From a virus: 64,000 nt of DNA. The first letter of the stretch is position 1. Each line of letters opens with the position of its first letter. Below the pieces are notes generated by a model. That model made no database searches. It was not told the origin of the DNA and worked only from the letters and a program-made list of their open reading frames with translations. A program made the translations under genes and the position numbers. Where the stretch lies: the IMG/VR virus record IMGVR_UViG_3300008266_000002. One strand, 5' to 3'. Positions 19,275 through 62,349 of this stretch are shown here, piece by piece.

Positions 19275-19336
19275 AATATCTGTTGCAAGTTTAAAATAAT
19301 AGTCGGATATTTATATAAAATTAAAATTCATAAAAA

Positions 19337-19768
19337 ATGAAAAGTAACGAATTAAGAAAATTAATCAGACAAGAAGTAAAATCCTTATTAAAGGAAGAGA
19401 TTACTCCACAGTCATCTCCACAAGAAATATTGGATTATGCTAACGATATGAAAGCAAAAATAGCAGCGAAGATTGATGCTGCTGTCAAGACACTCAAATT
19501 GCAAGTAAAGGCCAAAAAAGAGGATTGGTTTGCCGGAAGTCCTAAGACATTAACTATTAACGGACAAAAAGTGCAAACTATGCCAGGAGAGGAATTGCAA
19601 CTACATAGAGTAGGAGGGGTGGGTCAACTAAAACAGTTAATGAAGACATACAAAGTCTTTCCAGAGTATGTAAATCGAATACTCATAGCCATGTCAGAGG
19701 GTGATCAGGAAAACGTAGAATACTTCTACGACATGTTGATGAACGCAATGAAGCGAGTGGGACTCTAA
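19337..19768 (+). CDS. Leader-tagged cassette protein 1 (MKSNELRKLIRQEVKSLLKE)
   Basis: Own TATTTATA at 19308; flanked by hairpins. Confidence 0.7.
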   Translation: MKSNELRKLIRQEVKSLLKEEITPQSSPQEILDYANDMKAKIAAKIDAAVKTLKLQVKAKKEDWFAGSPKTLTINGQKVQTMPGEELQLHRVGGVGQLKQLMKTYKVFPEYVNRILIAMSEGDQENVEYFYDMLMNAMKRVGL

Positions 19769-19801
19769 CACAAAAACAAAAAAGCTGGCTTTTAAAATTT
19801 A

Positions 19802-19830
19802 AACCCTCCTTAGTGAGGGTTTTTCTTTTT
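19802..19830 (+). terminator. Terminator hairpin with CTTAGT loop
   Basis: AACCCTC-CTTAGT-GAGGGTT plus T tract. Confidence 0.8.
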
Positions 19831-19867
19831 AGACTCTATTTATAGGAAACAAACCAGTTATTAGTTT

Positions 19868-20551
19868 ATGGACCAACCTCAACGAGTAAGTAATCTCGAA
19901 AAAAGAAAACCCAAAGCTCCTATCAAGTATAAGATTGATCTTAATGAAGAGCAAAAAATTGCAAAAGCAACAATCTACAACAATCCGGTAGTATTATTGA
20001 AAGGAATGGCTGGGAGTGGTAAAACATTAGTAGCTTGTCAAACAGCTCTCGATATGTTTCATAAGAGGGAGATTGAAAAAATTATTATCACACGACCTAC
20101 AGTAGCAAAAGAGGATATTGGATTTTTACCAGGCGACTTAAAAGAAAAAATGGATCCATGGTTGGCACCAATTTATGCTAACCTATATATGCTCTATAAT
20201 AAACAATCCATAGATAAACTGGTTGAAGATGGATTGATAGAGATTGTTCCTTTTGCCTTTATGAGAGGTCGTACGTTTCCAAACATGTTTGTGTTAGTGG
20301 ATGAGTGTCAAAATATCACACATGGTCAAACAGAAATGATGATTGGTCGTTTAGGTAAGGGTGGCAAGATGGTATTCTGTGGAGATTTAGCCCAAATAGA
20401 TCTCAAGAATAAGAAAGACTCAGGTATTGGTTTTTTTGTGAGATTAGAGGAGCAGGTGAAGGGTGTGAAGATAGTATCACTAAAAACAAACCATAGACAT
20501 GAGATCGTCGAAGAGGTTCTAAAAGTATATTCGGACTACAGAGACCTCTAA
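19868..20551 (+). CDS. phoH: PhoH-family ATPase
   Basis: GMAGSGKT, IGFLPGDLKEK, FMRGRTF, DECQN and GDLAQID motifs. Confidence 0.93.
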   Translation: MDQPQRVSNLEKRKPKAPIKYKIDLNEEQKIAKATIYNNPVVLLKGMAGSGKTLVACQTALDMFHKREIEKIIITRPTVAKEDIGFLPGDLKEKMDPWLAPIYANLYMLYNKQSIDKLVEDGLIEIVPFAFMRGRTFPNMFVLVDECQNITHGQTEMMIGRLGKGGKMVFCGDLAQIDLKNKKDSGIGFFVRLEEQVKGVKIVSLKTNHRHEIVEEVLKVYSDYRDL

Positions 20552-20604
20552 TTGAATTTTAATTGGTAAAGCCTACTATTTATATGTAAACAACTACGTA
20601 GAAT

Positions 20605-21786
20605 ATGGCTAACATACCAATCTGGCCTGGATCCAGTTCATTTACTACATTATCAGCATCCTTCTACACAGGATCAACTACAACTAGACCAACTCCATTT
20701 GGATACTACGATGGTGATGCTACGTTTAAATTAGAAGCGGATAAGGTAGCTGATTGGTGTGCTAGAAGATTGGGTTACCCAATCATGGATGTAGAATTAC
20801 AAGACATTAACTTTTTTGCAGCATTTGAGGAAGCAGTAACAGAATTTAGTACTCAAGTTAACATGAACAATGCAAAGGACTACATGTTAACATTAATTGG
20901 TACTCCAGTCACAAATCAACTTAGTCAAAAACCCGTAACACCTAATCTTGGTCGTACAATTACTATGGCTAAAGGTTATGGTAGTGAAGCTGGTAGTGGT
21001 GGTACAGTAGACTGGAAAAAAGGATATGTGGATCTAGTGCCAGGATCACAAAGCTATGATTTGGATGCATTGTGGGCTAATGTTAGTGAGTCTGGAAAAG
21101 AGATAGAGATCAAGAGAGTTTATCACGACTTTACTCCAGCTATTGTAAGATACTTTGACCCTTATGTTGGAACTGGTGCTGGTACTCAGCAATTATTAGA
21201 TAGCTTTGGATGGGGATCTTATTCACCAGCTGTATCGTTCCTAGTAATGCCACTATATGCAGACTTATTAAGAATGCAGGCTATCGAATTAAATGATACT
21301 ATAAGAAAATCAAATTACTCATTTGAGCTTAGAAATAATAAACTTAATTTGTTTCCAATTCCAACTCTACCATACAAGATGTGGTTTGAGTATATTGTTG
21401 TGGATGATAGAAATGCACCAGTTTCAGGAAGCTCTACTGGATCAATCAGCGATTTAAGTAACGTACCTTATAGTAGAATTCAGTTTGGCAGCATAAAGGA
21501 TATAGGCATTCAGTGGATATATAAATACACACTAGCGCTTGTGAAAGAAATGCTGGGTTTAGTTCGTAGCAAGTATTCAGTTGTTCCTATTCCAGGTGCA
21601 GAAACAACATTAAATGGAACAGACCTAATGTCACAAGGGAGAGAAGATAAGACAGCATTAATAACAGAGTTGCAGACATTACTACAAGGTATGACACGTC
21701 AAGGTCAGATGGAGCAAGAGGTGGCAGTTGCAACAGCACTACAAACACAATTATCAAAAGTACCTCTTTACATATACGTTAAATAA
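20605..21786 (+). CDS. Neck/head-completion protein (T4 gp13-like)
   Basis: RRLGYPIMDVEL; YTLALVKEMLGLVRSKY...IPGAETTLNG. Confidence 0.8.
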   Translation: MANIPIWPGSSSFTTLSASFYTGSTTTRPTPFGYYDGDATFKLEADKVADWCARRLGYPIMDVELQDINFFAAFEEAVTEFSTQVNMNNAKDYMLTLIGTPVTNQLSQKPVTPNLGRTITMAKGYGSEAGSGGTVDWKKGYVDLVPGSQSYDLDALWANVSESGKEIEIKRVYHDFTPAIVRYFDPYVGTGAGTQQLLDSFGWGSYSPAVSFLVMPLYADLLRMQAIELNDTIRKSNYSFELRNNKLNLFPIPTLPYKMWFEYIVVDDRNAPVSGSSTGSISDLSNVPYSRIQFGSIKDIGIQWIYKYTLALVKEMLGLVRSKYSVVPIPGAETTLNGTDLMSQGREDKTALITELQTLLQGMTRQGQMEQEVAVATALQTQLSKVPLYIYVK

Positions 21787-27594: not shown

Positions 27595-28497
27595 ATGATC
27601 GATCATAATCACTTAGCAAACTTAGATAATAATGTAGCAATCTTCTATGCCAATGGAAGTAATGGCTGGCAGACATGGCAAAAGCCAAGAGGCTGTAAGT
27701 TTGTATGGACGATGGTTATAGGAGGAGGAGGTGGTGGTGGTGGTGGCCAATCAGGTACTGGAGTTGGTAGAACTGGAGGAGGAGGTGGTGCATCATCAGG
27801 AATTGCAAAAGGAATGTTTTTAGCAAATAGCTTACCGGATACATTATATGTCTTAGTGGGTATAGGAGGTAGTGGTGGAATACCAAATGGTAACGGTACG
27901 GGAGGTAGTTTATCATACATATCAATAGAACCAAACACAACAGCAGCAAACGTCTTATTAATACATAACTCAACCAACTCAGGACCAGGACAAAGCAATG
28001 GTACTGTAGGAGGAATTGGTGGTGGTGCAAACTTAACTCAACAACTTCTTAATTATCTGGGTGTAAATCAATTCACTCCAAATGGTGTAAATGGTGCGAC
28101 TGGTGGTACTAATGTTGGAGGGGCTGGTTCCAATGTAAATTCGGCAAATTTAACAACCGGAGGAGCAGGTGGTGGTGGTTCAAGTGCTGCAAACGTAAAC
28201 GGTGCTGGTGGAAACGTAACAATGGCAGGTAGTTTTCCTACACTAACGGGAGGAGCAGCTGGAGGAACAAATCACGGACAAAATGGGTTTAGTTCACTAC
28301 TACCAGGTAAAATATTAACAAATAAAACTGGCTTTATATTAACTGGTGGATCAGGAGGAGGGGCTAATGGAGCTGGAGTTGGAGGCAATGGAGGAGATGG
28401 AGCGTTTGGATGTGGGGGTGGTGGCGGTGGTGCTGGTACTACTGGAGGCTCAGGCGGAAGAGGAGGAGATGGATTAGTAATTATAATTTCATACTGA
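27595..28497 (+). CDS. Glycine-rich adhesin-like protein, paralog 1
   Basis: WQTWQKPRGCKF..GGGGGGG...GCGGGGGGAG...GGDGLVIIISY. Confidence 0.65.
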   Translation: MIDHNHLANLDNNVAIFYANGSNGWQTWQKPRGCKFVWTMVIGGGGGGGGGQSGTGVGRTGGGGGASSGIAKGMFLANSLPDTLYVLVGIGGSGGIPNGNGTGGSLSYISIEPNTTAANVLLIHNSTNSGPGQSNGTVGGIGGGANLTQQLLNYLGVNQFTPNGVNGATGGTNVGGAGSNVNSANLTTGGAGGGGSSAANVNGAGGNVTMAGSFPTLTGGAAGGTNHGQNGFSSLLPGKILTNKTGFILTGGSGGGANGAGVGGNGGDGAFGCGGGGGGAGTTGGSGGRGGDGLVIIISY

Positions 28498-28498
28498 T

Positions 28499-29416: not shown

Positions 29417-29420
29417 CACA

Positions 29421-33643: not shown

Positions 33644-33676
33644 AAAAGCCAACCAAAAAGTTGGCTTTTGTTTTTT
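33644..33676 (+). terminator. Terminator hairpin GCCAAC/GTTGGC
   Basis: AAAAGCCAAC-CAAAAA-GTTGGCTTTT. Confidence 0.8.
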
Positions 33677-33719
33677 AATTGTGGATCTTTAGTATATTAA
33701 TAATTAAAACAGCAAGAAA

Positions 33720-34091
33720 ATGAAACTATCACAAGTCAAACGTATTATAAAGGAAGAAATAAAAAAAGCTGTAAAAGAAGCTTATGACCTACCAACTCAA
33801 ACCACACCAGAACAATTTGTACAAGCAGTAACAGATATGCTACCGGAATTAAGAAAGCAAGTAGACGCTGCTGCAAGTGCAGTAAAAGTAGTCTATGTAG
33901 AAAATAGTGAACGATATGCTGCAAAACATACTCACGGAACAGAGTTAAAAGTACAATATGATGGTATCAAACAAGCTAACAAACTTGCAAATGCCTATAA
34001 TGAGATTCTATTTTACTTAGATGGTTATGCAAAACAACCATCTGATCGCTATGAAGAAAAAATTAGAGCTGCGGTAGCAACACTAAAATAA
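33720..34091 (+). CDS. Leader-tagged cassette protein 2 (MKLSQVKRIIKEEIKKAVKE)
   Basis: Inserted between tube and chaperone; TATTAATA at 33695; the same hairpin stem on both sides. Confidence 0.7.
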   Translation: MKLSQVKRIIKEEIKKAVKEAYDLPTQTTPEQFVQAVTDMLPELRKQVDAAASAVKVVYVENSERYAAKHTHGTELKVQYDGIKQANKLANAYNEILFYLDGYAKQPSDRYEEKIRAAVATLK

Positions 34092-34118: not shown

Positions 34119-34152
34119 AAAGCCAACCATAAAAAGTTGGCTTTCTTTTTTT
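34119..34152 (+). terminator. Terminator hairpin GCCAAC/GTTGGC
   Basis: AAAGCCAAC-CATAAAAA-GTTGGCTTT plus T tract. Confidence 0.8.
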
Positions 34153-35255: not shown

Positions 35256-35282
35256 AGCCAACCTAGTGTTGGCTTTCCTTTT
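35256..35282 (+). terminator. Terminator hairpin with CTAGT loop
   Basis: AGCCAAC-CTAGT-GTTGGCT plus T-rich tail. Confidence 0.8.
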
Positions 35283-35312
35283 GTATAGATATTTATATGA
35301 AAACGTTGTAAA

Positions 35313-35636
35313 ATGACTGATAAACAATTGCGCGAAAAGCTTCGCAAAATAATACAGCAAGAATATCATAACTATAGAATCGAGGAAGGTATTGTTAATT
35401 GGATGATTGACAAAGTTGGACAATTTGGTACAAACTTACTAAAAAGTAAGACAGAGTATACTCTAGCAAGGATATACAAAGATCCTGAGTTCCGCAAGCT
35501 CAGTAAGCAATTTGGAATGAAGGAAGATGAATTTGTTCAAAGAGCAACAAAGCTCATCAAGCAAGATCCTAAAAAATTTGCTGATATATTAGCATATGAT
35601 GTTAGAAAGGGTGCATTTGGTAAATACTTCAAATAG
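35313..35636 (+). CDS. Leader-tagged cassette protein 3 (variant leader QLREKLRKIIQQE...IEE)
   Basis: Own TATTTATA at 35290; sits between chaperone and tape measure. Confidence 0.6.
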   Translation: MTDKQLREKLRKIIQQEYHNYRIEEGIVNWMIDKVGQFGTNLLKSKTEYTLARIYKDPEFRKLSKQFGMKEDEFVQRATKLIKQDPKKFADILAYDVRKGAFGKYFK

Positions 35637-44962: not shown

Positions 44963-44989
44963 TAAAGACTATTTATAAGAAAACTTGTG

Positions 44990-45178
44990 ATGAAGAAATC
45001 CGATCTAATTAGAATTATAAGAGAAGAGGTATCTACCGTAATTAAAGAGTTATCGCAGGCCGAAAAAGCAGCTAACATAAAATCCAAAATGGCTGATGTA
45101 GAGGCAAAAAAGGTAGCATTGAAACATGCACAAGACGAGCTTAAAAAAATTCAGGCAGGAGTAGTAGACGAGAAATAA
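44990..45178 (+). CDS. Leader-tagged cassette protein 4 (MKKSDLIRIIREEVSTVIKE)
   Basis: TATTTATA at 44970; short coiled-coil payload. Confidence 0.65.
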   Translation: MKKSDLIRIIREEVSTVIKELSQAEKAANIKSKMADVEAKKVALKHAQDELKKIQAGVVDEK

Positions 45179-50067: not shown

Positions 50068-50132
50068 AAAATCGTGTTATGTTAGATATTTATCTTTTTA
50101 ACAAACAATCCCAAAAACAAAATTTTTAATTT

Positions 50133-51992: not shown

Positions 51993-51994
51993 TA

Positions 51995-52842: not shown

Positions 52843-52868
52843 ACTATTTATATATAAAATATATAACA

Positions 52869-53414
52869 ATGCAATACCCTACCTCAAAAGTTCAAAATGT
52901 AGTGTCACAACCAGCTCAAACATTACTACCAAAAACATTACCAGATAATCTCGTGAGCATGCTTAATAGTGCTATTGGAGAAGAATACGCTGCTCATTAT
53001 TATTACAGACATGCATCAAACTGGTGTCAAGGAGTTGGATACACAAAGGCAGCAGCCTTCTTTGCATCTGAGGCATCTGCAGAATTAGAGCATGCTGAAG
53101 GAATACAAAAGTATTTAGTTGACTGGAATTGTACCCCAGCAATACCACCTATCAAGTTTTCTGGTGAATTTGCAAGTCTTATTGATGTTGTAAACAAAGC
53201 ATACGATCTTGAGTTTGACTTAGGTGAAAAGTATAACACAATGTCAGCTGAAATTTTCAACTTACACTTACCTACATTTGATTTCTTACAACATTATAGA
53301 ACAATTCAAACCGAATCAATAGCAGAGTTTTCAGACTTATTGAATGCTGCTCAGCTTATTGATCCATCAAACAAACTTGACTTACTCCATTATGAAGAGA
53401 GATACTTCGGTTAA
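52869..53414 (+). CDS. Ferritin-like protein
   Basis: EEYAAHYY, ELEHA, LE and Q..E ferroxidase-type pattern; TATTTATA at 52845. Confidence 0.85.
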   Translation: MQYPTSKVQNVVSQPAQTLLPKTLPDNLVSMLNSAIGEEYAAHYYYRHASNWCQGVGYTKAAAFFASEASAELEHAEGIQKYLVDWNCTPAIPPIKFSGEFASLIDVVNKAYDLEFDLGEKYNTMSAEIFNLHLPTFDFLQHYRTIQTESIAEFSDLLNAAQLIDPSNKLDLLHYEERYFG

Positions 53415-54711
53415 TAATAGCATAATTGATTTAGACTTGCATCTCAGTCGTCTTCCTCAAAAGGAGATTGTTACAGAGATCAAAAGACCAACACTACAAC
53501 CTGTCAATGTTGATTGGAATAATATCCTCACAGAATGGTCATATAGACTTCCAAAAGGGTATCCTACTATTGAAGATGGTAGAATAACGGACGAACAAGA
53601 GCTTGCAGTGCTTCGTGAAATCTTGCAGGAGTATGGAATAAAGGAAATCCCAGCTCTTATGATCAATGAAGTGAGGACTACCAAAAAAGCTCTAACGTTA
53701 GAAATATCCAAAGATGATCTAAAACAATTAATTGATAAACTTCCAGATGACTTTTCAGCAAATCAACTACAAAAACTTTATAATAGAATAAGTGCGTTTG
53801 GTACGTTTAAACCAATAAGAAAAGCATTGCAGGCAAAGGGTTTTAAGTCGGCCGTTGATAAATCTGGTAAGGTTAGGTTCGATATGCCAAAGGCAATTGC
53901 GAGTCAGCTACAACTCATGATTGAAGAACTTCCTACCGAGATGTATCAGGACTTCGTTGATTATATAACCACTGGCGATCAAGTTGTATTCCCAACAAAC
54001 CAAAGAACGGGCAATATTAATAATCTACTATCGGACACGGGAGTGGCGGAAGAAGTAACTGCTACCTTAGCAAGGTATACGGGACAGGATGAAGGAAAGA
54101 AGGGAGTCGGTATGGCTGAAATCATGTTAGCACTATCCTTTAAAAACATAAGAAAACCACCAGGAGCTGGTGATTTAGAAATCGACGATCGAAAGTTTGA
54201 AGTGAAGGGTTTCAGTGCCAGACTTGGAGGAACAGGTCCTTATTTATCCAAAGAAGGAATTGCAAAGCTCTCAGAATTGGGGATGACCTTACAATCTGAC
54301 GCTAAGCTCACGTATAAAGGAATCACTGATCGTACTCCCATAATAATGTCCATTGCTGGAAAGGACGATCCAAAAAAGATCAAAGAATTGTTTGCGTATT
54401 TGCTTACTCAAGTTGGTATCCCACAAAAGTTTGCAACCCACTCCGCGAATCTCGTAAGGGATTGGAATAAGCCATCCGAAATTAATACAGCGTGGGGTTT
54501 AGGAAATTTTATGACTTATGCAGAAAGGGATGACTTTAGTGCTTTCATAGCTGCCGATTATGGTACATCTGGTGCTAACAAGGGAAATTACGTATATGTT
54601 CAGGGAAGTCCAGAAGAAATGGCGACTCAATTGTTTGACGCTGAGGTGCCTTTTGAAGGTTTTAACTTCAAATCAAACACATATCCTCGAATAGTATACA
54701 AAAAACAATAA
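53392..54711 (+). CDS. PD-(D/E)xK restriction-endonuclease-like protein with ILTEWSYR..KGYP N-terminal module
   Basis: GMAEIML...GDLEIDDRKFEVKG; ATG 53392 preferred over 53344, start uncertain. Confidence 0.55.
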   Translation: MKRDTSVNNSIIDLDLHLSRLPQKEIVTEIKRPTLQPVNVDWNNILTEWSYRLPKGYPTIEDGRITDEQELAVLREILQEYGIKEIPALMINEVRTTKKALTLEISKDDLKQLIDKLPDDFSANQLQKLYNRISAFGTFKPIRKALQAKGFKSAVDKSGKVRFDMPKAIASQLQLMIEELPTEMYQDFVDYITTGDQVVFPTNQRTGNINNLLSDTGVAEEVTATLARYTGQDEGKKGVGMAEIMLALSFKNIRKPPGAGDLEIDDRKFEVKGFSARLGGTGPYLSKEGIAKLSELGMTLQSDAKLTYKGITDRTPIIMSIAGKDDPKKIKELFAYLLTQVGIPQKFATHSANLVRDWNKPSEINTAWGLGNFMTYAERDDFSAFIAADYGTSGANKGNYVYVQGSPEEMATQLFDAEVPFEGFNFKSNTYPRIVYKKQ

Positions 54712-54784
54712 AGGTTGTGTACTATACTTCAAAGGTGTATATTTATATATAAATTATATTATATATCATAAACAATAGCTAAGA

Positions 54785-55570
54785 ATGAAACTATCTCAAT
54801 TCAGACGCCTTATAAAGGAAGAAATTAAAAAAGTACTAAAAGAGGCTGCAAACCCCAAAGTAATAGCAGCTATTAATAAAAATAAAGCAGCACTCACAGC
54901 AGCTATTAAAAACCGATTAGCTAATGATTGGGATGAGGAGGCTTCTGACGCTGTAGAAGCTTTGCTGAAAAAAACAGCATTAGAAGCTGGCTTACCTAAA
55001 GCCTATGTCAACAAGTATCCTTGGATGGAGAACTATGCAGTACCTGATGAGAGTACTGTTGCAAAGGATCTTAGCAACTTACAAGGACATTTTGAAGATG
55101 CCCTTAATGATCCTGATATTATGACTGCTACGGCAAAATCGGGGTCTAATACACAACAGACTCGTGATGTGTATATGAAGGCAGCTAGTCAAGGCGTATA
55201 TCATCTTGGTCTAAGCTTCCAACCTGCAATTAAGAAGAGGGTAGAAGATGCTATAACTCGCGGATCTAATCTTAAGGAATGGTTAGATACTGAGTTCATT
55301 GTCGTAAAGGATGGACCAAAAACCTATGCAGTTTTTATGCCTGTAGGTAGGACAAATGATCCAGTTGGAGTTGTAGAACTTAGGAATAGCAAAATCGGGG
55401 CAGATGTAAATGACAACAGCATCAAAAGCAAGTTAGTTGCAAAAATAACACGAGCAGGACTTGGAGATTTTAATACAAGAAACAAATTGTTTAGCCTTCA
55501 GAATCCAGCAAAAACTGGAGAGGTACAAGTGCCAGATGCCTCTCAAATACAAAGCGAGCTTAGTCGATAA
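54785..55570 (+). CDS. Leader-tagged cassette protein 5 (MKLSQFRRLIKEEIKKVLKE)
   Basis: TATTTATA at 54740; CTTAGT-loop hairpin downstream. Confidence 0.7.
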   Translation: MKLSQFRRLIKEEIKKVLKEAANPKVIAAINKNKAALTAAIKNRLANDWDEEASDAVEALLKKTALEAGLPKAYVNKYPWMENYAVPDESTVAKDLSNLQGHFEDALNDPDIMTATAKSGSNTQQTRDVYMKAASQGVYHLGLSFQPAIKKRVEDAITRGSNLKEWLDTEFIVVKDGPKTYAVFMPVGRTNDPVGVVELRNSKIGADVNDNSIKSKLVAKITRAGLGDFNTRNKLFSLQNPAKTGEVQVPDASQIQSELSR

Positions 55571-55608
55571 GTGAATCAACACGTAAAAAAACGATAAAAA
55601 ATAAAAAG

Positions 55609-55655
55609 AAAACCAACCTTAGTGTTGGTTTTTTGTTTTAAAGGGTGTATCTTTA
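55609..55655 (+). terminator. CTTAGT-loop terminator overlapping a Bacteroidota-type promoter
   Basis: AAAACCAAC-CTTAGT-GTTGGTTTT; GTTG(55624)-N20-TATCTTTA(55648). Confidence 0.75.
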
Positions 55656-55680
55656 AGGTACACAAAAAACAAGTTACAAC

Positions 55681-56130
55681 ATGGGAAAATTTAATTGGTG
55701 GCATCGATTCAAAAAGAAAAAACCTCTATCTAAAAAAGATGCCTTTAGAGGTAAGTCCTTCCTATTACAACAAATCGAACACGGAGATTTTGACTTCAGT
55801 GATTATCGTAGACAGGCTCTATACGAGCTAGAACTATGTGAACAAGAAAAAACTAAAGTAAAGAGCACTTGGGTTGCTAGTGAATTATCTCTCAAAGAAA
55901 AGTTGGATGAGATTGATCGTAAGTACAACAAACGCTACAAGTTGTTGATGCAAGACTATGATGATGAGGAGACTCGATTACTATCTGAACTAAAAAGAAG
56001 ATTGGTGTCTGAGTTTGGTATTGATTGTTGGAACGAAGTCGTAGAGTTAGACCCAGAACAAAATCTCGAACAATTTTATCGCAACTATCAAAAGATGGCA
56101 CTTTCAATAAGAGAAATGTTGGAAGTGTGA
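55681..56130 (+). CDS. Hypothetical protein
   Basis: FNWWHRF...IEHGDF motif plus coiled coil. Confidence 0.6.
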   Translation: MGKFNWWHRFKKKKPLSKKDAFRGKSFLLQQIEHGDFDFSDYRRQALYELELCEQEKTKVKSTWVASELSLKEKLDEIDRKYNKRYKLLMQDYDDEETRLLSELKRRLVSEFGIDCWNEVVELDPEQNLEQFYRNYQKMALSIREMLEV

Positions 56131-56149
56131 TTTATTTTACCTATATTCA
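56118..56149 (+). promoter_or_regulatory. Bacteroidota-type promoter upstream of queD
   Basis: GTTG-N20-TATATTCA. Confidence 0.5.
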
Positions 56150-56167
56150 AAGAAAATTAATTTATTT

Positions 56168-56632
56168 ATGACTTATCAATCAACAAAACTATTTGACGGA
56201 TTTAGTACAGTGTTTCGTCAATGGGCTGCAGAAGGAACACACTGTAAGTATCTACACGGTTATGATGTAGAAATTAAAGTTACATTTGAGGGAGAACTTG
56301 ACCATCGTAATTGGGTATGGGACTTTGGAGGAATGAAAAGAGCAAAAGGTACAATCGATGGTATCAATCCTAAGACATGGTTTGATTACATGTTTGATCA
56401 TACTACTGTTATCGCTCCAGATGATCCTGAGTTACCAATCTTTGAAGAGCTGCACAGAAAAGGAGTAATACAACTTCGCATATTGGAAGGACCAGTAGGA
56501 GCAGAGAAGTTTGCAAAGTTTGTATATGACAAAGTAAACGCATTTGTGCAACAAGAAACAGATGGTCGTGTAAGAGTAGTAGAAGTAGAATTTTTTGAAA
56601 ACAAAAGAAATAGTGCAATTTATAAACCTTAA
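56168..56632 (+). CDS. queD: 6-carboxy-5,6,7,8-tetrahydropterin synthase
   Basis: HCKYLHGY, WVWDFG, FDHT, GAEKFA and E.FEN motifs. Confidence 0.9.
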   Translation: MTYQSTKLFDGFSTVFRQWAAEGTHCKYLHGYDVEIKVTFEGELDHRNWVWDFGGMKRAKGTIDGINPKTWFDYMFDHTTVIAPDDPELPIFEELHRKGVIQLRILEGPVGAEKFAKFVYDKVNAFVQQETDGRVRVVEVEFFENKRNSAIYKP

Positions 56633-56636
56633 TATT

Positions 56637-56855
56637 ATGGAACAACAAACATTTTCACTTTATGAGTATCTTGGACAGGCAGCTGGATCAACTCTAGGAA
56701 AGCAAGTATATGAAGCTGCAGTAACTAAAGGAGTGCAAGTAACAACCCACAATGTCAGTACAAGAACGTACTCAGGTAAAATTCTAAGATACCCTAAAGA
56801 ATTCTTAGATGAGTATTTCGCAAAATTATATGTCGATACAATGATGTATCGCTAA
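56637..56855 (+). CDS. Small conserved hypothetical protein
   Basis: SLYEYLGQAAG...YSGKILRYPKEFLDEYF; ATG 56637 preferred. Confidence 0.6.
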   Translation: MEQQTFSLYEYLGQAAGSTLGKQVYEAAVTKGVQVTTHNVSTRTYSGKILRYPKEFLDEYFAKLYVDTMMYR

Positions 56856-56877
56856 TTGATCAGTTTAATAATAAAAT

Positions 56878-57660
56878 ATGAAACCAGGTAGAATAACAGA
56901 TTATAATAAAAAACTTCCAATCGTTGAACTTTACTATTGTGTACAGAGTGAAGCTTCACGTGCAGGATATCCTACTGTAGCAATAAGAACCACAGGCTGT
57001 ACTCACAGATGTTGGTTCGGTGAAGGAGGATGGTGTGATAGTTGGTATACAAGTATCCATCCAGAGAAAGGAGGATTCACATTCAATGACATCGTAAAGA
57101 TGTATGATGATAGACCAGATGTAAAAGAGATGATGTTAACTGGTGGATCACCAACTATGCATGCTGACTTAGTAAATGAATTGACTCACTTCGCACATGA
57201 GAGAGGTATTATCATTACAATTGAAACGGAAGGTAGTCATTTTATTGAAACAGATTATCCAATTGATTTAATTTCACTATCACCTAAGTTTAGTAACTCT
57301 GTTCCTAAGTTAGGAGTGCTAACTCCAAAAGGTGTTGTGGTAGATCAGAAAATGATTGATCAACATAACAAGCTAAGACTTAATAAAGAGGCTATCAAGC
57401 AAACCTTAGCTTATCATAAAGACTACCATTACAAACCAGTATGCAATCCAGTAGAGATGCCTGAAGTATGGAACGAGATCGAAGAGTTTAGAATTGAGAT
57501 GGGTATTCCTAAAAACAAAACTTGGATAATGCCTCCAGGTGACAATCGTCAAGAGCTTATTAGAGTGTATCCAATGGTTATTGATTTTTGTACTGAGAAT
57601 GGTTATAATTTCACCGGTCGTGAGCATATCATCGCTTACGATACTAAAAGAGGAGTGTAA
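56878..57660 (+). CDS. queE: 7-carboxy-7-deazaguanine synthase (radical SAM)
   Basis: VQSE, RTTGCTHRCWFGEGGWCDS, LTGGSP, IETEG and SLSPK motifs. Confidence 0.9.
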   Translation: MKPGRITDYNKKLPIVELYYCVQSEASRAGYPTVAIRTTGCTHRCWFGEGGWCDSWYTSIHPEKGGFTFNDIVKMYDDRPDVKEMMLTGGSPTMHADLVNELTHFAHERGIIITIETEGSHFIETDYPIDLISLSPKFSNSVPKLGVLTPKGVVVDQKMIDQHNKLRLNKEAIKQTLAYHKDYHYKPVCNPVEMPEVWNEIEEFRIEMGIPKNKTWIMPPGDNRQELIRVYPMVIDFCTENGYNFTGREHIIAYDTKRGV

Positions 57661-57661
57661 T

Positions 57662-57838
57662 ATGCACGAAGTACTTCACATTATAGGTTTGTGTCCAGAT
57701 AGTATGGCACACTTTGATTTATTAGATTTAATTGTTGCAAACAATCCAATTATTGGGTATCTTAATGTTATTAACTTTCAAAATATAAAATACAATGTTA
57801 TTAAACGCTTATCAGGTAGAGGATCTACTACAAACTAA
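57662..57838 (+). CDS. Small hypothetical protein
   Basis: ATG right after the queE stop (MHEVLHIIGLCPDS...). Confidence 0.4.
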   Translation: MHEVLHIIGLCPDSMAHFDLLDLIVANNPIIGYLNVINFQNIKYNVIKRLSGRGSTTN

Positions 57839-58277
57839 TGGCAAAGGGGCAAAAGCTCAAGTAGGCTATGACCTAACACTTAAAGGAGTAAAAAAGATTA
57901 ATGGTGGGATGGTATTGAGTGACAAGACAGAGGTTGATCAATATACTGAAGTATCACCAATCGTATCAGGTACTGGAAAGTTTTTATACAAACTAGAGCC
58001 AGGAACTTATAGCTTAACTTTTGAACAAGGTGTTAAGTTAGATAATAATCATACTGCATTCATTAGACATCGCTCTAGTGTACTGCGTTGCGGTGGTATT
58101 ATTACAAGTGGAGTTTACGATCCGGGTTTTGAAGTGGATGAAATGGGTGGTGTATTAATTGCAACCCAAACTATATTAATTGAGAAAGGTGCCAGAGTAG
58201 CTCAGATCATTATTATGGAAAATAATCCAGCTGAATTATACGATGGTCAATGGCAAAAAGGTAAGGATTTAAAATAA
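57795..58277 (+). CDS. dCTP-deaminase/dUTPase-fold protein (second trimeric dUTPase-fold gene)
   Basis: GYDLTL, RSS, GVYDPGF, RVAQI and YDGQWQ motifs. Confidence 0.8.
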   Translation: MLLNAYQVEDLLQTNGKGAKAQVGYDLTLKGVKKINGGMVLSDKTEVDQYTEVSPIVSGTGKFLYKLEPGTYSLTFEQGVKLDNNHTAFIRHRSSVLRCGGIITSGVYDPGFEVDEMGGVLIATQTILIEKGARVAQIIIMENNPAELYDGQWQKGKDLK

Positions 58278-58339
58278 GAAAAGCGTTGGTTTCTAAAACA
58301 AAAGGGTGATATTTATATAGAAACAAATCACACTCAAAC

Positions 58340-58894
58340 ATGAAATTATCACAATTCAAAAAACTCATTAGAGAGGAGATTCAAAAAGTCCTTAGAGAAG
58401 GTCAAGAAACAACATTATCCCAACTGCAGGTTGGTGATAAGTTTAGTATTCTTGAGGATGCATTAGTAGTACCAGCCAACACAGGATATAGTAGTACTTA
58501 TAACCTATCCTATTCAAAGTACAAAGATTTAATCTTCGAAGTAGTTAAACTCAACCCAAAAACTATGGTATGCATACCATACAATAAGGATGGAAAGTAT
58601 CCAGATAATGTTGCAGAGAAACTTAACGATCCATATGGGACTTGGCATGTCGCTGGTAAAACACGACAAGATCTACAACCTCCAATATTGCCATCATCAG
58701 TAGTACTTAATACGGCGAATCTTAACATGTCAGACTCGGCTGTAGCAGATATTATCACAAAACAAAATGCATGGGAAAATGGAGAACGTCCAAAATATGA
58801 CTTTAAGGATAACTTTGAAGGACCAACTTACAATAAAATATTGTTAGTACAATTTGCACCCCACAAAAAAGATGCGCGAGTAATGACAAAATAA
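58340..58894 (+). CDS. Leader-tagged cassette protein 6 (MKLSQFKKLIREEIQKVLRE)
   Basis: TATTTATA at 58310; interrupts the deazaguanine cluster. Confidence 0.7.
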   Translation: MKLSQFKKLIREEIQKVLREGQETTLSQLQVGDKFSILEDALVVPANTGYSSTYNLSYSKYKDLIFEVVKLNPKTMVCIPYNKDGKYPDNVAEKLNDPYGTWHVAGKTRQDLQPPILPSSVVLNTANLNMSDSAVADIITKQNAWENGERPKYDFKDNFEGPTYNKILLVQFAPHKKDARVMTK

Positions 58895-58898
58895 AAAG

Positions 58899-58937
58899 AA
58901 AAAGGCTTGCTTCGGTAAGCCTTTTTTTGTATCTTTA
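58899..58937 (+). terminator. UUCG-tetraloop terminator overlapping a Bacteroidota-type promoter
   Basis: AAAAAGGCTTGC-TTCG-GTAAGCCTTTTT; CTTG(58906)-N20-TATCTTTA(58930). Confidence 0.8.
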
Positions 58938-58964
58938 AGTTATAATATAAAACACAATAAGGTT

Positions 58965-59306
58965 ATGAAAAAATTTATTGAAGTAAGACTAGACATTGAA
59001 GGTCTTCACAACTGGCCAGATTGTAATCTGCCTCATGTAGAATACCTCAAGTATCCACACAGACACACGTTTGTTATTCATTGTAGAGTAGAAGTCTCTC
59101 ATGGAAATCGTGACGTTGAGTTTATCGATTTCAAACACAATATTAAACAATTTATTGCAAAACGTTGGTATGATCCAACTTATGGCTGTTGTAACTTTGG
59201 TTCAATGAGCTGTGAAATGATCGCAGAAACTTTATTAGATCAATTTGGACTCTGTAGATGTTCAGTGTCTGAAGATAATGAATTTTGGGGGATTGTAGAG
59301 CTATGA
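58965..59306 (+). CDS. QueD-like T-fold protein (DpdL-like, putative CDG decarboxylase)
   Basis: EGLHNW, LKYPHRHTF (LxxxHRHxF instead of QueD CxxxHGH), SCEMIAE and VSEDNE motifs. Confidence 0.65.
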   Translation: MKKFIEVRLDIEGLHNWPDCNLPHVEYLKYPHRHTFVIHCRVEVSHGNRDVEFIDFKHNIKQFIAKRWYDPTYGCCNFGSMSCEMIAETLLDQFGLCRCSVSEDNEFWGIVEL

Positions 59307-59770
59307 TACAAACAAAGAAGGTAGTACTACTATTTGGAAAGATTTGCAGTGGTAAAAGCACATATGCAGATGCATTATGTTTTGTCACTAAAGCAAAGCG
59401 CATTACAGTGTCAGATATTGTAAAAAGAATATCAGGCAAAGCAACTCGAAGTGAATTACAAGACACAGCTCATATGGATCAACTCATAACACATGAGCTT
59501 GCTGCTGAATGTAAAAAGTATGATAAGGTTATTGTGGATGGCATTAGACAGGTTAGTATTGTGGAAGGTATGATAAACTATTTTGGTGCAGAGAACATTG
59601 ACATGGTTTGGTTAGAGGTTCCAGACGAAGTACGTAGACATAGATTCTATAGTAGGTCAGTATCAAAGGATGATATTACATTTGAGGAGGCCGATAAAAG
59701 AGATGAGAAATTAGGGCTGTTAGAGTTGCAAAATACACTAAAAAGTTCCTATATTGTTATAAATAATTAA
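59303..59770 (+). CDS. P-loop nucleoside monophosphate kinase-like protein
   Basis: GKICSGKST, IVDGIRQ and lid-type R..R...R; ATG 59303 overlaps the previous stop. Confidence 0.75.
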   Translation: MIQTKKVVLLFGKICSGKSTYADALCFVTKAKRITVSDIVKRISGKATRSELQDTAHMDQLITHELAAECKKYDKVIVDGIRQVSIVEGMINYFGAENIDMVWLEVPDEVRRHRFYSRSVSKDDITFEEADKRDEKLGLLELQNTLKSSYIVINN

Positions 59771-59784
59771 ACAAATAAAGTTAT

Positions 59785-60426
59785 ATGCAACTACTAAAAA
59801 AGGCTAATGGTAACCTTCCTCGTACGGATGAGGAGAAAAAACAAATGATTGATAAAGCTGCAGAGTATTATGGTCAGTTTCTAAATGCATTAGGATTTGA
59901 TTGGGCAGCTGATCCACACTCAGCCAATACTCCAAGAAGAGTGGCTAAAGCATGGGTTAATGACTTAATTGCTGGATCTATAAATGAGGAGCCGGAGATC
60001 ACAGCTTTCCCTAATGATGAGGGATATACTGGATTAATTTGTCAGACTAGAATACCAGTTATGAGTATGTGTGCTCATCATAATCTAACATTCTCAGGAG
60101 TAGCTCATGTAGCTTATTTGCCAGGTAAAGAGAAGAATGATATGGTAGTTGGATTGAGTAAGCTTAATCGTATTGTTGATTTCTATTCTCGTAGACCAAA
60201 TATTCAAGAGTCTCTTACAAAACAAATTCACGATCATATTGATAGACTGTGTATTGGTAATAGAGGTGTCGCTGTTGTTATTGAATCACAGCACAATTGT
60301 GTGAAGTGTAGAGGTATTAAGCAAGACTCAGTAATGAAAACTTCACAGATGTCTGGATACTTCTGGACTAATGAAATTGGCACTCGCCAGGAATTTTTTA
60401 ACTTAATCGATCAAAGTAGATATTAG
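59785..60426 (+). CDS. folE: GTP cyclohydrolase I
   Basis: TPRRVAK, SMCAHH, GLSKLNR, RPNIQE and HNCVKCRG motifs. Confidence 0.95.
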   Translation: MQLLKKANGNLPRTDEEKKQMIDKAAEYYGQFLNALGFDWAADPHSANTPRRVAKAWVNDLIAGSINEEPEITAFPNDEGYTGLICQTRIPVMSMCAHHNLTFSGVAHVAYLPGKEKNDMVVGLSKLNRIVDFYSRRPNIQESLTKQIHDHIDRLCIGNRGVAVVIESQHNCVKCRGIKQDSVMKTSQMSGYFWTNEIGTRQEFFNLIDQSRY

Positions 60427-60427
60427 T

Positions 60428-61216
60428 ATGGACTTTTACGTTATATCACCAGTCAGTAACTTAGAACCAATGAAGTTGGGAGATAGGATATTTGTACTCG
60501 CTCACTTGTGGGTACAATTTCCTGAATACAGAGAGTTTATTCTGCAACGAAAGGCAGAAGGAGCTTTCATTACATTAGACAACTCAGCTGCTGAAAGAGC
60601 TTTAGTAACTGAGGATGTACTGATACAAATTTGCCATGAACTCAAGCCTAACGAAGTTATTGCACCTGACGTACTGTTTGATAAAGACGCTACGATCAAA
60701 AACGCAATGAGCTTTGCTGAAAGGTTAGTGGGTGAAGGTCTTGAAGATACTGTGGAGATGTTCTTCTGTCCGCAAGGGAAAACAAAGCAGGATTGGCTAG
60801 AGTGTTACTTGTGGGGATTAACTCAAAAGTATATTCACACAATCGGCTTTTCTAAGATTGCAATTCCACAAGCATGGTTGGATAACTGGAAAGATGATCA
60901 GGGTATTAAAGAAGCTCGTCACATGGCGTATGATTATCTCAAAGAGCGTAATCTGTTATTGAAGCCAATTCACTGTCTTGGTCAGGGAGATCCAACTGAG
61001 TTTGCTTATTATGATCATCCAATGATGAGAAGTACAGATTCAGTGTATCCGATCCTAGCTGCAACATTAGGACAAGACTTTACAAAGGATCATACTACGA
61101 GAACTCCAACACCACACAACTTTCTAGAGACGTGCGATATGTCGATGGTTGATGTTGGCATCATTAAGAGAAATGTAGCGTTCTTGAGAGAGCAATGCCA
61201 CTCAATTAAAAACTAG
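60428..61216 (+). CDS. TGT/DpdA-like TIM-barrel transglycosylase
   Basis: TLDNSAAE, APDVL, CPQG, HCLG and RSTDS match the DS/D/QG/HxLG/DS order of TGT-family enzymes; follows folE. Confidence 0.6.
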   Translation: MDFYVISPVSNLEPMKLGDRIFVLAHLWVQFPEYREFILQRKAEGAFITLDNSAAERALVTEDVLIQICHELKPNEVIAPDVLFDKDATIKNAMSFAERLVGEGLEDTVEMFFCPQGKTKQDWLECYLWGLTQKYIHTIGFSKIAIPQAWLDNWKDDQGIKEARHMAYDYLKERNLLLKPIHCLGQGDPTEFAYYDHPMMRSTDSVYPILAATLGQDFTKDHTTRTPTPHNFLETCDMSMVDVGIIKRNVAFLREQCHSIKN

Positions 61217-61239
61217 TATATTTATACTAAAAAGATTTA

Positions 61240-61944
61240 ATGAAGATATCACAACTAAAAAAGCTTATTCGAGAGGTTGTTCGTAATGAACTGGGGCTGG
61301 ATGAAAAACTAGCACTTAAAAGCTATACTGAATATGCCAAATTAGTTACTCAAGCCTATGTAGATGCACCACCTTACGAGTCGTCAGCTGTGAGTCATTG
61401 GAATGCTCTAAGAACTTCAAACTACACTTGGTGGAAACGTCTTATTAGTGAGGTAGAGGTAATTTTTGTTAGTGGAGAATCTAAATACAAGAATAAACCA
61501 AGCACACTTAGTATTGCAGGAAAAGCGTATCCACTAGAGTATTTGCAAGGAGGGCAACCTTATGATACAGCATCTCAGATGGCCAACTCCTATAAAAATG
61601 AAGGAAAGCTGTATATATCAATTGACTACTCTGATCACCCATTATGGTCTGTAGAGGATAATATTGTTTTTCGTACAGTGCATGATTATATTGTACATAT
61701 TAGAGGTGGATTTGAATTTGGGCTTAAAGGGGAGTTGGGGTCATATAACCTACACGCTAAGTTAGCACCAAAGGCTGCATTGCCTGCTCTGTTTACAGAA
61801 ATTGTTGGTCAAGCTGCTTATGCAGTAACAAATGGAGATTTTCCATCCCAACAGAAGATTGCCATACTTCCTGGGTTTAATTATCTGAATGTGGGTGAGG
61901 TAGAGGGCTACGATATTAAAGATAAAACCTTAGTTAAGAAATAA
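61240..61944 (+). CDS. Leader-tagged cassette protein 7 with HDxxxH/E putative metal-binding domain
   Basis: MKISQLKKLIREVVRNELGLDE leader; FRTVHDYIVH...GE...H...ALFTE; TATTTATA at 61219. Confidence 0.65.
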   Translation: MKISQLKKLIREVVRNELGLDEKLALKSYTEYAKLVTQAYVDAPPYESSAVSHWNALRTSNYTWWKRLISEVEVIFVSGESKYKNKPSTLSIAGKAYPLEYLQGGQPYDTASQMANSYKNEGKLYISIDYSDHPLWSVEDNIVFRTVHDYIVHIRGGFEFGLKGELGSYNLHAKLAPKAALPALFTEIVGQAAYAVTNGDFPSQQKIAILPGFNYLNVGEVEGYDIKDKTLVKK

Positions 61945-61985
61945 AACACGCCCCCAGACAAAAAAGAGCCAACCTAGTGTTGGCT
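61943..61985 (+). repeat. 43-bp direct repeat, copy 1, containing the CTAGT-loop terminator
   Basis: aaaacacgcccccagacaaaaaagagccaacctagtgttggct. Confidence 0.9.
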
Positions 61986-62036
61986 ATTTTTAATTAGAGG
62001 TATATATTTATAAGTAAATTACAAACATAAACAAAA

Positions 62037-62294
62037 ATGAAAACCTCAGAATTTAGAAAATTAATCCGCGAAGAAGTTCGTAAAGTATTAAAAGAAGATA
62101 ACACTGCAGACTTAAATGCTCTCGAACAAAAATTAAGGAGCCATGATTGGTATTACATGTATAGTGATGATCATAGTGCTTATCTAGAGGGCTCACAAGA
62201 AGCTTCTGATATTCAAGCTTTAGTGGATAAATTAGGTGAAGAGGGTAGAGAGCTTTATCAGCAAGCTTTTGATAAACACTTCAAACGATCCTAG
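62037..62294 (+). CDS. Leader-tagged cassette protein 8 (MKTSEFRKLIREEVRKVLKE)
   Basis: TATTTATA at 62003; payload with HDWYYMYSDD motif; bracketed by the direct repeats. Confidence 0.7.
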   Translation: MKTSEFRKLIREEVRKVLKEDNTADLNALEQKLRSHDWYYMYSDDHSAYLEGSQEASDIQALVDKLGEEGRELYQQAFDKHFKRS

Positions 62295-62306
62295 ATGAGA
62301 TTTTAA

Positions 62307-62349
62307 AAAACACGCCCCCAGACAGAAAATAGCCAACCTAGTGTTGGCT
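62307..62349 (+). repeat. 43-bp direct repeat, copy 2 (41/43 identical to copy 1)
   Basis: aaaacacgcccccagacagaaaatagccaacctagtgttggct. Confidence 0.9.

What the first reader, a model, noticed from the sequence alone, without database searches (positions are those of the whole stretch)
19308..62349. Dispersed late-promoter + shared leader + variable payload cassettes: a candidate modular capsid-cargo delivery system
Seen in sequence: eight stand-alone genes (19337, 33720, 35313, 44990, 54785, 58340, 61240, 62037) start with a related ~20-aa amphipathic leader. Examples are MKSNELRKLIRQEVKSLLKE, MKLSQVKRIIKEEIKKAVKE, MKKSDLIRIIREEVSTVIKE, MKLSQFRRLIKEEIKKVLKE, MKLSQFKKLIREEIQKVLRE, MKISQLKKLIREVVRNELGLDE and MKTSEFRKLIREEVRKVLKE; 35313 is a looser variant. 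After the leader the payloads are mostly unrelated. Each gene has its own TATTTATA (one TATTAATA) motif, the same motif that precedes portal, neck and sheath, even when the gene sits inside replication or DNA-modification operons. Each leader ends in (L/I/V)-x-E. Established: the T4 gp21 prohead protease cleaves after (L/I)-x-E, and T4 internal proteins enter the head via a short cleaved N-terminal capsid-targeting sequence and are then injected. This phage encodes a gp21 homolog and its MCP has LLKE|G at the expected site. Inference: the leader is a portable packaging tag. Any gene that acquires the promoter and tag becomes a head-packaged, injected effector, for example anti-defence or host takeover. 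The result would be an exchangeable, genome-wide effector repertoire.
Basis: partly seen in the sequence, partly recalled or inferred. Interest (0 to 1): 0.9.

Follow-up and report, generated by a model that had tools for sequence, protein, structure and literature searches.

The report
Shared capsid-loading leader on phage proteins
An uncultured freshwater T4-like phage puts the same 20-residue N-terminal tag, which ends in the cutting motif of its head-maturation protease, on seven unrelated small late proteins scattered through the genome. This is most likely a longer version of the tag phage T4 uses to load proteins into its capsid, and it marks hundreds of unknown proteins in metagenomes.

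Summary
Seven of the eight genes (19337, 33720, 44990, 54785, 58340, 61240, 62037) start with one 20-residue amphipathic leader, always at Met1 and never elsewhere in the window. Gene 35313 is only a loose relative. All eight have a TATTTATA-type motif 17-45 nt upstream, and most have their own terminator.

- The leader ends in (L/I/V)-x-E, as does the conserved maturation site of the major capsid protein.
- The genome encodes a gp21-type protease.
- In relatives, proteins with this leader sit inside the head-core module.
- Orthologous payloads carry the long leader, a short T4-like leader or other leaders, but keep the hydrophobic-x-Glu junction.
- An exhaustive search finds 796 protein clusters with the leader, nearly all at residue 1. 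In a separate set of 119 leader proteins the payloads fall into at least 54 unrelated groups.
- Terminator/promoter repeats bound the cassettes, as PeSL elements do in T4-type phages.

Virion presence, cleavage, late timing and injection are untested. This is a new variant of the T4 capsid-targeting system, not a new principle. This scan has already noted comparable leaders of other sequence on other phage genomes.

The parts
19308..19315 (+). TATTTATA promoter-like motif of leader gene 19337
19337..19768 (+). Leader gene, 143 aa. Homologs in relatives lie between the protease and the g14868 homolog in the head module.
33648..33665 (+). Terminator hairpin GCCAACC..GTTGGC upstream of the 33720 cassette
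33695..33702 (+). TATTAATA variant of the promoter motif
33720..34091 (+). Leader gene, 123 aa, inserted between tail tube and baseplate hub. The slot is empty in the relative G002.
34122..34141 (+). Terminator hairpin downstream of 33720. It is part of a 42-nt direct repeat with the upstream hairpin and its T-run.
35257..35273 (+). Terminator hairpin before 35313
35290..35297 (+). TATTTATA motif of 35313
35313..35636 (+). Loose leader variant, 107 aa. Not a member by profile (E = 8), but it has the same hairpin and promoter context.
44970..44977 (+). TATTTATA motif of 44990
44990..45178 (+). Leader gene, 62 aa
54740..54747 (+). TATTTATA motif of 54785
54785..55570 (+). Leader gene, 261 aa. 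Homologs at 45% identity carry a short 9-aa leader instead. A terminator-like hairpin follows at 55609-55632.
58310..58317 (+). TATTTATA motif of 58340
58340..58894 (+). Leader gene, 184 aa, inside the 7-deazaguanine cluster. A terminator follows at 58897-58928.
61219..61226 (+). TATTTATA motif of 61240
61240..61944 (+). Leader gene, 234 aa. The payload is a widespread phage-only domain of unmatched fold. Homologs have hypervariable leaders and a conserved (L/I/V)-x-E junction.
61943..62010 (+). Left copy of a 68-nt direct repeat (hairpin, T-run and promoter) that flanks the 62037 cassette
62037..62294 (+). Leader gene, 85 aa; its leader is closest to the metagenome-wide consensus
62307..62374 (+). 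Right copy of the 68-nt direct repeat (82% identical)
14249..14866 (+). gp21-type prohead protease, the presumed processing enzyme
15214..15660 (+). Acidic head-core protein with a leader-like N-terminus that ends L-R-E|A. Its ortholog in L011 carries a long-type leader.
16614..17573 (+). Acidic scaffold-like protein directly upstream of the capsid gene. It has 14 (L/I)-x-E sites (z = 2.8) and is the presumed docking partner; that role is inferred only.
17600..19222 (+). gp23-type major capsid protein. It has clade-invariant L-L-E46|N and (V/I/L)-x-E55|(A/S/G) sites where the mature T4 gp23 begins.

Best explanation
The 20-residue leader is a prohead-core targeting propeptide, a long and highly conserved counterpart of the 10-residue T4 capsid-targeting sequence.

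INFERRED MECHANISM. Each cassette is transcribed from the same (A/C)TATTTATA-N3-AA promoter type as the portal, neck and sheath genes, and so with the structural genes. The amphipathic helix (residues 3-17) docks the new protein onto the assembling scaffold core. The capsid shell closes around it. The gp21-type protease then cuts after (L/I/V)-x-E at residue 20, in a flexible linker, and possibly also after I-R-E at residue 12. The payload is left free inside the head and leaves with the DNA at infection.

CASSETTE MOBILITY. The genes are self-contained units of terminator hairpin, promoter, leader and payload. Repeated hairpin/promoter sequences bound them, which lets recombination move or exchange them. 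This would explain why they lie in tail, replication and DNA-modification regions and are patchy between relatives.

SHOWN VERSUS INFERRED. Shown here: the shared leader, its strictly N-terminal position, the junction motif, the protease homolog, the promoter motif, the cassette repeats, the leader swaps and the head-module location in relatives. Inferred: docking, cleavage, packaging, ejection and any function in the host.
For: (1) The leader occurs only at Met1. This holds for 7/7 genes in the window, all 34 profile hits that include model position 1 in relatives, 117/119 proteins and 122/130 representatives.
(2) The junction fits the T4 gp21 rule L/I-x-E (PMC9026906). Position 18 is L/I/V in 119/119, position 20 is E in 117/119 and position 21 is Ala in 56%.
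(3) The capsid protein of 70 clade members has an invariant (V/I/L)-x-E55 followed by A/S/G, and an invariant LLE46. Both lie where the mature T4 gp23 N-terminus aligns.
(4) A gp21 homolog is present. The head-core proteins 12653, 14868 and 16614 are enriched in (L/I)-x-E sites, z 2.8-3.4.
(5) In relatives, long-leader proteins are encoded inside the head module. 19337 homologs follow the protease in L008 and L045. The g15214 ortholog in L011 has a long-type leader. The C-terminal domain of g13500 is a separate ORF with the leader in L011, exactly where the window's fused protein has an internal L-K-E.
(6) Leaders are swapped on orthologous payloads. In the 61240 family (121 sequences) the leaders are hypervariable, and some resemble T4's own tag, yet P3 is hydrophobic in 118/121 and P1 is Glu in 120/121. 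In the 54785 family the leader is either long or a 9-aa short type. The ortholog of window gene 8298 in L001 has the long leader added in front.
(7) AlphaFold2 of 61240 (pLDDT 92.5) gives a helix at 3-17, then a low-confidence linker that holds the L-D-E site, then a compact domain.
(8) The promoter motif is shared with the structural genes and enriched on leader genes, p = 2e-4. It also precedes portal and g12653 in relatives.
(9) Selection acts on the protein: 54% of same-residue codon pairs differ synonymously.
Against: No direct evidence exists.
- No virion proteome, N-terminal mapping or expression timing is available for this phage or any relative. RNA contigs did not cover the leader genes.
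- The leader is twice as long as the T4 tag and far more conserved: 81% identity between proteins with unrelated payloads. T4 targeting needs little sequence specificity, so the leader may have another or an additional partner.
- (L/I/V)-x-E is short and common in K/E-rich helices.
- In the 61240 family the Glu is followed by conserved residues and could belong to the folded domain.
- Leader-like N-termini also occur on a conserved gene just upstream of the gp25-type baseplate gene in immuto and L106. This does not fit a head-only role.
- Two complete or isolate relatives show no long leader: the 178-kb G003 and Microcystis phage Mel-JY01.
Confidence: 0.6

Rival explanations
1. The leader does target proteins to the prohead, but they are assembly or core accessory proteins. 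Like T4 gp67, gp68 and gp22, they would be degraded or expelled during maturation. They would not be cargo injected to act on the host.
For: Several leader proteins are small helical proteins encoded inside the head module of relatives. Head-core proteins of this phage carry the same kind of leader. No payload matches a known effector or enzyme family.
Against: The 61240 payload is a compact 210-residue domain with invariant His, Asp and Glu residues. It looks like an enzyme rather than a scaffold. Payload diversity of at least 54 unrelated groups, with patchy presence, is not what an essential assembly factor would show. Payloads carry few internal (L/I)-x-E sites, whereas core proteins carry many.
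Confidence: 0.17
2. The leader is an address or recognition helix for a partner other than the capsid core. Candidates are a modifying enzyme, a chaperone, a baseplate or tail assembly hub, or a host structure. The Glu-ended junction would then be incidental.
For: The leader is conserved over all 20 residues at 81% identity across unrelated payloads. This points to a specific partner that reads the whole helix, unlike the loosely specified T4 tag. Leader-like proteins sit in baseplate and tail modules. An earlier case in this scan (e1-127136) found a shared phage N-terminal tag better explained as an enzyme recognition site.
Against: No candidate partner enzyme was seen next to the cassettes; their neighbours are unrelated tail, replication and queuosine genes. 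The hydrophobic-x-Glu junction survives leader swaps, which an incidental feature would not. Head-module location in relatives and the match to the capsid maturation site also argue against it.
Confidence: 0.13
3. The conserved 5' coding stretch is a nucleic-acid feature. It could be an A-rich translation-initiation region for hosts that lack Shine-Dalgarno use. Or it could be part of the recombining promoter cassette, kept similar by gene conversion, with no role for the peptide.
For: The leader codons are A-rich. The cassettes are bounded by repeated regulatory DNA: a 68-nt repeat at 82% identity and five copies of one hairpin.
Against: Nucleotide identity among the leaders is only 60%, and 54% of same-residue codon pairs differ synonymously. 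The conserved pattern is a hydrophobic stripe plus a Glu junction, which are protein features. The flanking repeats end before the ATG. The leader also occurs inside operons without its own promoter.
Confidence: 0.04

Closest known systems
T4 capsid-targeting sequence (CTS) of internal proteins IPI, IPII and IPIII (and the Alt propeptide), removed by prohead protease gp21
   Same: It is an N-terminal tag on otherwise unrelated small proteins. It ends in hydrophobic-x-Glu and sits in a genome with a gp21 homolog and a gp23-type capsid that has the same kind of site. T-even internal proteins are already described as a diverse set sharing only the CTS (PMC3012670, PMC9026906). Some leaders on 61240-family homologs closely resemble the T4 tag.
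   Different: The leader is 20 residues rather than 10, and is a clear amphipathic helix with a hydrophobic stripe. It cannot be aligned to the T4 tag. It is far more conserved, and it marks 796 protein clusters rather than a handful of proteins. The genes are dispersed single cassettes, not one locus. Function is untested here, whereas in T4 it is shown by fusions and genetics.
PeSL composite terminator/promoter cassettes that mediate modular shuffling in T4-type phages (PMC2839356, PMC4122927)
   Same: A stem-loop terminator followed by a promoter is repeated at the borders of variable genes. Direct repeats of this unit flank single genes (62037, 33720), and the slots are empty in relatives.
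   Different: The promoter here is the motif shared with the structural genes, so it is presumably late, not early. The hairpin sequence is unrelated. Recombination at these repeats is inferred from the layout and was not seen between near-identical genomes.
Processed inner-body and ejection proteins of phiKZ-like and SPN3US-like giant phages (summarised in PMC9026906; also PMC5694885)
   Same: Many head-internal proteins carry propeptides that a gp21-related protease cuts after Glu. Paralogous and fused forms occur.
   Different: Those proteases use S/A/G-x-E. Here P3 is L/I/V, as in T4. Giant-phage propeptides are not one conserved 20-residue tag.

Membership tests
T4-type capsid-targeted, gp21-processed head proteins | Tag lies at the extreme N-terminus of otherwise unrelated proteins | tested here: met
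   The leader is at residue 1 in 117/119 and 122/130 proteins. Payloads fall into 54 unrelated groups.
T4-type capsid-targeted, gp21-processed head proteins | Tag ends in the gp21 consensus (L/I)-x-E | tested here: met
   P3 is L/I/V in 119/119 and P1 is E in 117/119; the junction is kept when leaders are swapped.
T4-type capsid-targeted, gp21-processed head proteins | gp21-family prohead protease and gp23-type capsid protein with a matching maturation site in the same genome | tested here: met
   for the protease (5JBL, E 4e-14). for the capsid sites at residues 46 and 55.
T4-type capsid-targeted, gp21-processed head proteins | Sequence similarity of the tag to the T4 CTS | tested here: inconclusive
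   The 20-aa leader cannot be aligned to the 10-aa T4 tag. Short leaders in the same genome, and on homologs of the same payloads, resemble it. The T4 tag sequence is from my own knowledge.
T4-type capsid-targeted, gp21-processed head proteins | Protein is present in virions with the tag removed | not testable with these tools
   No proteome of this phage or of a relative was found.
T4-type capsid-targeted, gp21-processed head proteins | Expression together with the head genes (late) | tested here: inconclusive
   The promoter motif is shared with portal, neck and sheath. There is no timing data, and RNA contigs did not cover the genes.
T4-type capsid-targeted, gp21-processed head proteins | Ejection into the host with the DNA | not testable with these tools
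   Needs experiment.
PeSL-type mobile regulatory cassettes | Composite terminator stem-loop plus promoter repeated at the borders of variable genes | tested here: met
   five copies of one hairpin against 0.01 expected, a 68-nt repeat around 62037 and a 42-nt repeat around 33720.
PeSL-type mobile regulatory cassettes | The promoter is an early promoter | tested here: not met
   The motif is the one in front of portal, neck and sheath, so it is of structural-gene type. This is a resemblance in layout, not membership.
PeSL-type mobile regulatory cassettes | Insertions and deletions between relatives map to the repeats | tested here: inconclusive
   The MCP-PhoH slot is empty in L001 and L008, and the tube-hub slot is empty in G002. 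These relatives are too distant (55-82% capsid identity) to map breakpoints.

The most novel reading that the evidence does not exclude
The 20-residue leader is a high-specificity address read along its whole length by a conserved prohead-core receptor. It would then act as a sequence-predictable 'secretion signal' of a large clade of aquatic Bacteroidota-type T4-like phages. The roughly 800 leader-tagged protein clusters, all of unknown function, would be a ready catalogue of proteins injected with the DNA, such as anti-defence or takeover factors. Late terminator/promoter cassettes would shuffle them between genomes.
Probability: 0.3. Interest if true: 0.8.

Novelty: new variant of a known kind. 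Interest (0 to 1): 0.6.

Why it matters
If the leader works as proposed, one short profile would pick out the capsid cargo of a large group of uncultured freshwater and marine phages. That is about 800 protein clusters with no known family. Internal proteins are where T4 keeps anti-restriction and host-modifying factors, so this set would be a focused place to look for new counter-defence proteins.

The idea is testable. The cultured Flavobacterium phage immuto carries four such genes. The leader could also serve as a packaging tag for loading foreign proteins into phages of Bacteroidota, as the T4 tag does in E. coli.

The principle itself is established in T4, and this scan has already flagged comparable leaders in other phage lineages.

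Tried and rejected
- Complex prediction of the leader (62037, residues 1-36) with the scaffold alignment gave no answer: score 0.00 and controls not run. It counts neither for nor against binding.
- RNA contigs of four metatranscriptome runs laid on 44000-63999 covered only pieces of SSB, UvsX, helicase and QueE. They did not cover the leader genes, so they say nothing about expression or timing.
- No whole genome is held for the window, and megablast found no near-identical phage record.
- tblastn of the 22-aa leader against 50,697 phage records gave one weak hit, in an uncultured 484-kb phage. A related cyanophage-like leader variant gave none. tblastn of the 61240 protein gave none.
- Pfam and PHROGs gave no significant family for any of the eight proteins, apart from families of unknown function.
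- Fold searches with the 61240 model found nothing: Foldseek against PDB gave no hit at E <= 0.001, VIA-align gave a best Z of 3.1, and the Atlas returned only viral hypothetical clusters.
- Atlas look-ups of the 54785 and 58340 payloads were uninformative.
- Full-text search for the leader sequence found no paper.
- A membrane-anchor or signal-peptide reading was rejected, because the leader is highly charged with 4-5 Glu.
- A reading as recent DNA duplication was rejected on synonymous codon differences.


Full report
WHAT THE WINDOW IS. All long ORFs lie on the + strand. The window holds the morphogenesis and replication regions of a T4-like myovirus:
- large terminase at 9148, portal at 10780, gp21-type protease at 14249, gp23-type capsid protein at 17600;
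- PhoH at 19868, neck protein at 20605, sheath at 30728, tube at 33134, baseplate hub at 34192;
- SSB, UvsX, helicase and ribonucleotide reductase;
- a 7-deazaguanine cluster and a DNA polymerase.
The capsid protein is 53% identical to those of Flavobacterium phage immuto and Microcystis phage Mel-JY01, and 37% identical to that of Rhodothermus phage RM378. IMG/VR holds hundreds of relatives, the closest at 82%. Near-identical DNA occurs mainly in freshwater metagenomes from several studies.

CHECK OF THE OBSERVATION. Seven genes begin with one 20-residue leader. Regex scans of all six frames find it only at these seven start codons. A profile scores them at E 5e-11 to 2e-8, and scores 35313 at E = 8. 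Payloads are unrelated by BLASTP.

The leaders are 60% identical in DNA and 53% in protein. In 54% of positions where two leaders share a residue, the codons differ. Selection therefore acts on the peptide, not on the DNA.

TATTTATA is three-fold over-represented: 22 copies against 7.8 expected. Eighteen copies are on the + strand, and 16 of these lie 12-45 nt before a gene start. The extended consensus is (A/C)TATTTATA-N3-AA in 16/16 sites. Six of seven leader genes have the exact motif, against 10 of 69 other genes (p = 2e-4). The motif precedes portal, neck and sheath here, and portal and the next gene in seven relatives.

Most leader genes also have their own terminator. One hairpin, GCCAACC..GTTGGC, occurs five times against 0.01 expected, always beside a leader gene. 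A 68-nt direct repeat of hairpin, T-run and promoter flanks gene 62037, and a 42-nt repeat flanks 33720.

THE LEADER IN RELATIVES AND METAGENOMES. An iterated profile finds the leader in many related loci. Every hit that includes model position 1 lies at Met1 and on the capsid-gene strand.
- A complete 157-kb relative (G002) has six dispersed leader genes, five with an ATATTTAT-type motif upstream.
- The cultured phage immuto has four, mostly a 12-13-residue version.
- A complete 178-kb relative and Mel-JY01 have none.
Against 5.8 billion proteins, 117 of the 119 leader proteins examined have the leader at residue 1. Their payloads fall into 54 groups unrelated by BLASTP, yet the leaders of unrelated proteins are 81% identical. 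None has a Pfam domain.

An exhaustive search of 1.84 billion representatives gives 796 clusters at E <= 0.001. The leader is at residue 1 in 122 of the 130 newly returned hits. About a dozen are fusion proteins with two or three leaders.

EVIDENCE THAT LINKS THE LEADER TO HEAD MATURATION.
(a) The junction. Position 18 is always L/I/V, position 20 is Glu in 117/119 and position 21 is Ala in 56%. The T4 protease cuts after L/I-x-E, classically at a Glu-Ala bond (PMC9026906).
(b) The capsid protein. In 70 clade members it has an invariant L-L-E46 and an invariant (V/I/L)-x-E55 followed by A/S/G. Alignment to mature T4 gp23 places the T4 mature N-terminus at about residue 46.
(c) The protease. 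It is a clear gp21 homolog (5JBL, E 4e-14).
(d) The head-core proteins. The acidic scaffold-like protein 16614 and the core proteins 12653 and 14868 carry two to three times more (L/I)-x-E sites than shuffled versions. This is expected of multi-site substrates such as T4 gp22.
(e) Head-module small proteins of this phage. Genes 3150, 5035, 7124, 7565, 8298 and 14868 carry short leaders of 8-15 residues that end in (L/I)-x-E, much like the T4 tag. Genes 7981 and 15214 carry longer ones that resemble the 20-residue leader.
(f) Position in relatives. Homologs of 19337 lie directly after the protease in L008 and L045. The ortholog of 15214 in L011 has a long-type leader. In L011 the C-terminal domain of the 13500 protein is a separate ORF that starts with the long leader, exactly where the fused protein in the window has an internal L-K-E.
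(g) Leader swaps. In the 61240 family (121 sequences) the leader varies from 4 to about 30 residues. It includes forms close to the T4 tag and forms like the capsid protein's own N-terminus. The junction is nevertheless hydrophobic at P3 in 118 sequences and Glu at P1 in 120. In the 54785 family, close relatives have the long leader and homologs at 45% identity have a 9-residue short leader. The ortholog of window gene 8298 in L001 has the long leader added in front of its short one.
(h) Structure. The AlphaFold2 model of 61240 (pLDDT 92.5) shows a helix at 3-17, a low-confidence linker that holds the cut motif, and then a compact domain.

CASSETTE BEHAVIOUR. The slot between the capsid gene and PhoH holds 19337 in the window, nothing in L001 and L008, and other genes in L011. 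The tube-hub slot holds 33720 here and nothing in G002. Together with the flanking terminator/promoter repeats, this resembles the PeSL-mediated shuffling described for T4-type phages (PMC2839356, PMC4122927). The difference is that the promoter here is the structural-gene motif.

WHAT REMAINS OPEN. Nothing here shows packaging, cleavage, timing or ejection. The complex prediction gave no answer and the RNA contigs were uninformative. The payloads are all of unknown function. The best-studied one, 61240, has a confident model with no match among solved structures and invariant His, Asp and Glu residues. That suggests an enzyme and no more.

The leader's extreme conservation over 20 residues goes beyond what the T4 tag needs. 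It may reflect a specific receptor, or a second function. Leader-like N-termini on a conserved gene next to the gp25-type baseplate gene in immuto and L106 do not fit a head-only role.

VERDICT. The most likely reading, which I put at 0.6, is a head-targeting, protease-removed propeptide on mobile late cassettes. The further claim that the payloads are injected effectors is plausible by analogy with T4 IPI and Alt, but it is untested.

This is a new variant of the T4 capsid-targeting system. The leader sequence does not appear in the searchable literature. This scan has already reported comparable leaders of other sequence in other phage lineages, and in two neighbouring regions of this same genome.

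Noticed in passing
window 3150-8477 and 14868-15660: Small and large genes of the head region (3150, 5035, 7124, 7565, 8298, 14868) begin with short 8-15-residue leaders that end in (L/I)-x-E, much like the T4 tag. Genes 7981 and 15214 have longer, intermediate forms. Gene 3150 (627 aa) has a cytidylyltransferase-like HxGH motif just after its leader, so a sizeable enzyme may also be packaged.
   Followed up: partly
window 61240-61944: The payload belongs to a phage-only family with at least 169 homologs. Residues R145, H148, D149, H153, E165, N170 and H172 are invariant. The AlphaFold2 model is confident and has no match among solved structures. It is probably an uncharacterised enzyme.
   Followed up: partly
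proteins P0133, P0244, P0245, P0260, P0262, P0349 (metagenomes): These proteins contain two or three copies of the leader, each internal copy still starting with Met-Lys. They look like fused neighbouring leader genes, or polyproteins meant to be cut apart.
   Followed up: partly
L011 2849-3633 versus window 13500-14252: The 13500 head-module protein is one ORF in the window, with an internal L-K-E at the domain border. In L011 it is two ORFs, and the second starts with the long leader.
   Followed up: yes
window 27595-30344: Three tandem paralogous genes of 300-307 aa share a conserved N-terminal motif (W-Q-T-W-x-K-P-x-G-C-K). They lie between the neck/fibre genes and the sheath gene.
   Followed up: no
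window 15657-16439: This head-module protein, between the protease and the scaffold, has a long hydrophobic, probably membrane-spanning C-terminal region. That is unusual for a prohead core gene.
   Followed up: no
window 55609-55632, 58897-58928, 19243-19275: Strong intrinsic-terminator hairpins close the 54785 and 58340 cassettes and the capsid gene. The one at 55609 has a core related to the GCCAACC..GTTGGC family.
   Followed up: partly
L106 18010-18450; MW353176.1 81481-81900: A conserved gene directly upstream of the gp25-type baseplate gene starts with a leader-like helix followed by a Pro/Thr/Lys-rich stretch. No counterpart was looked for in the window.
   Followed up: no
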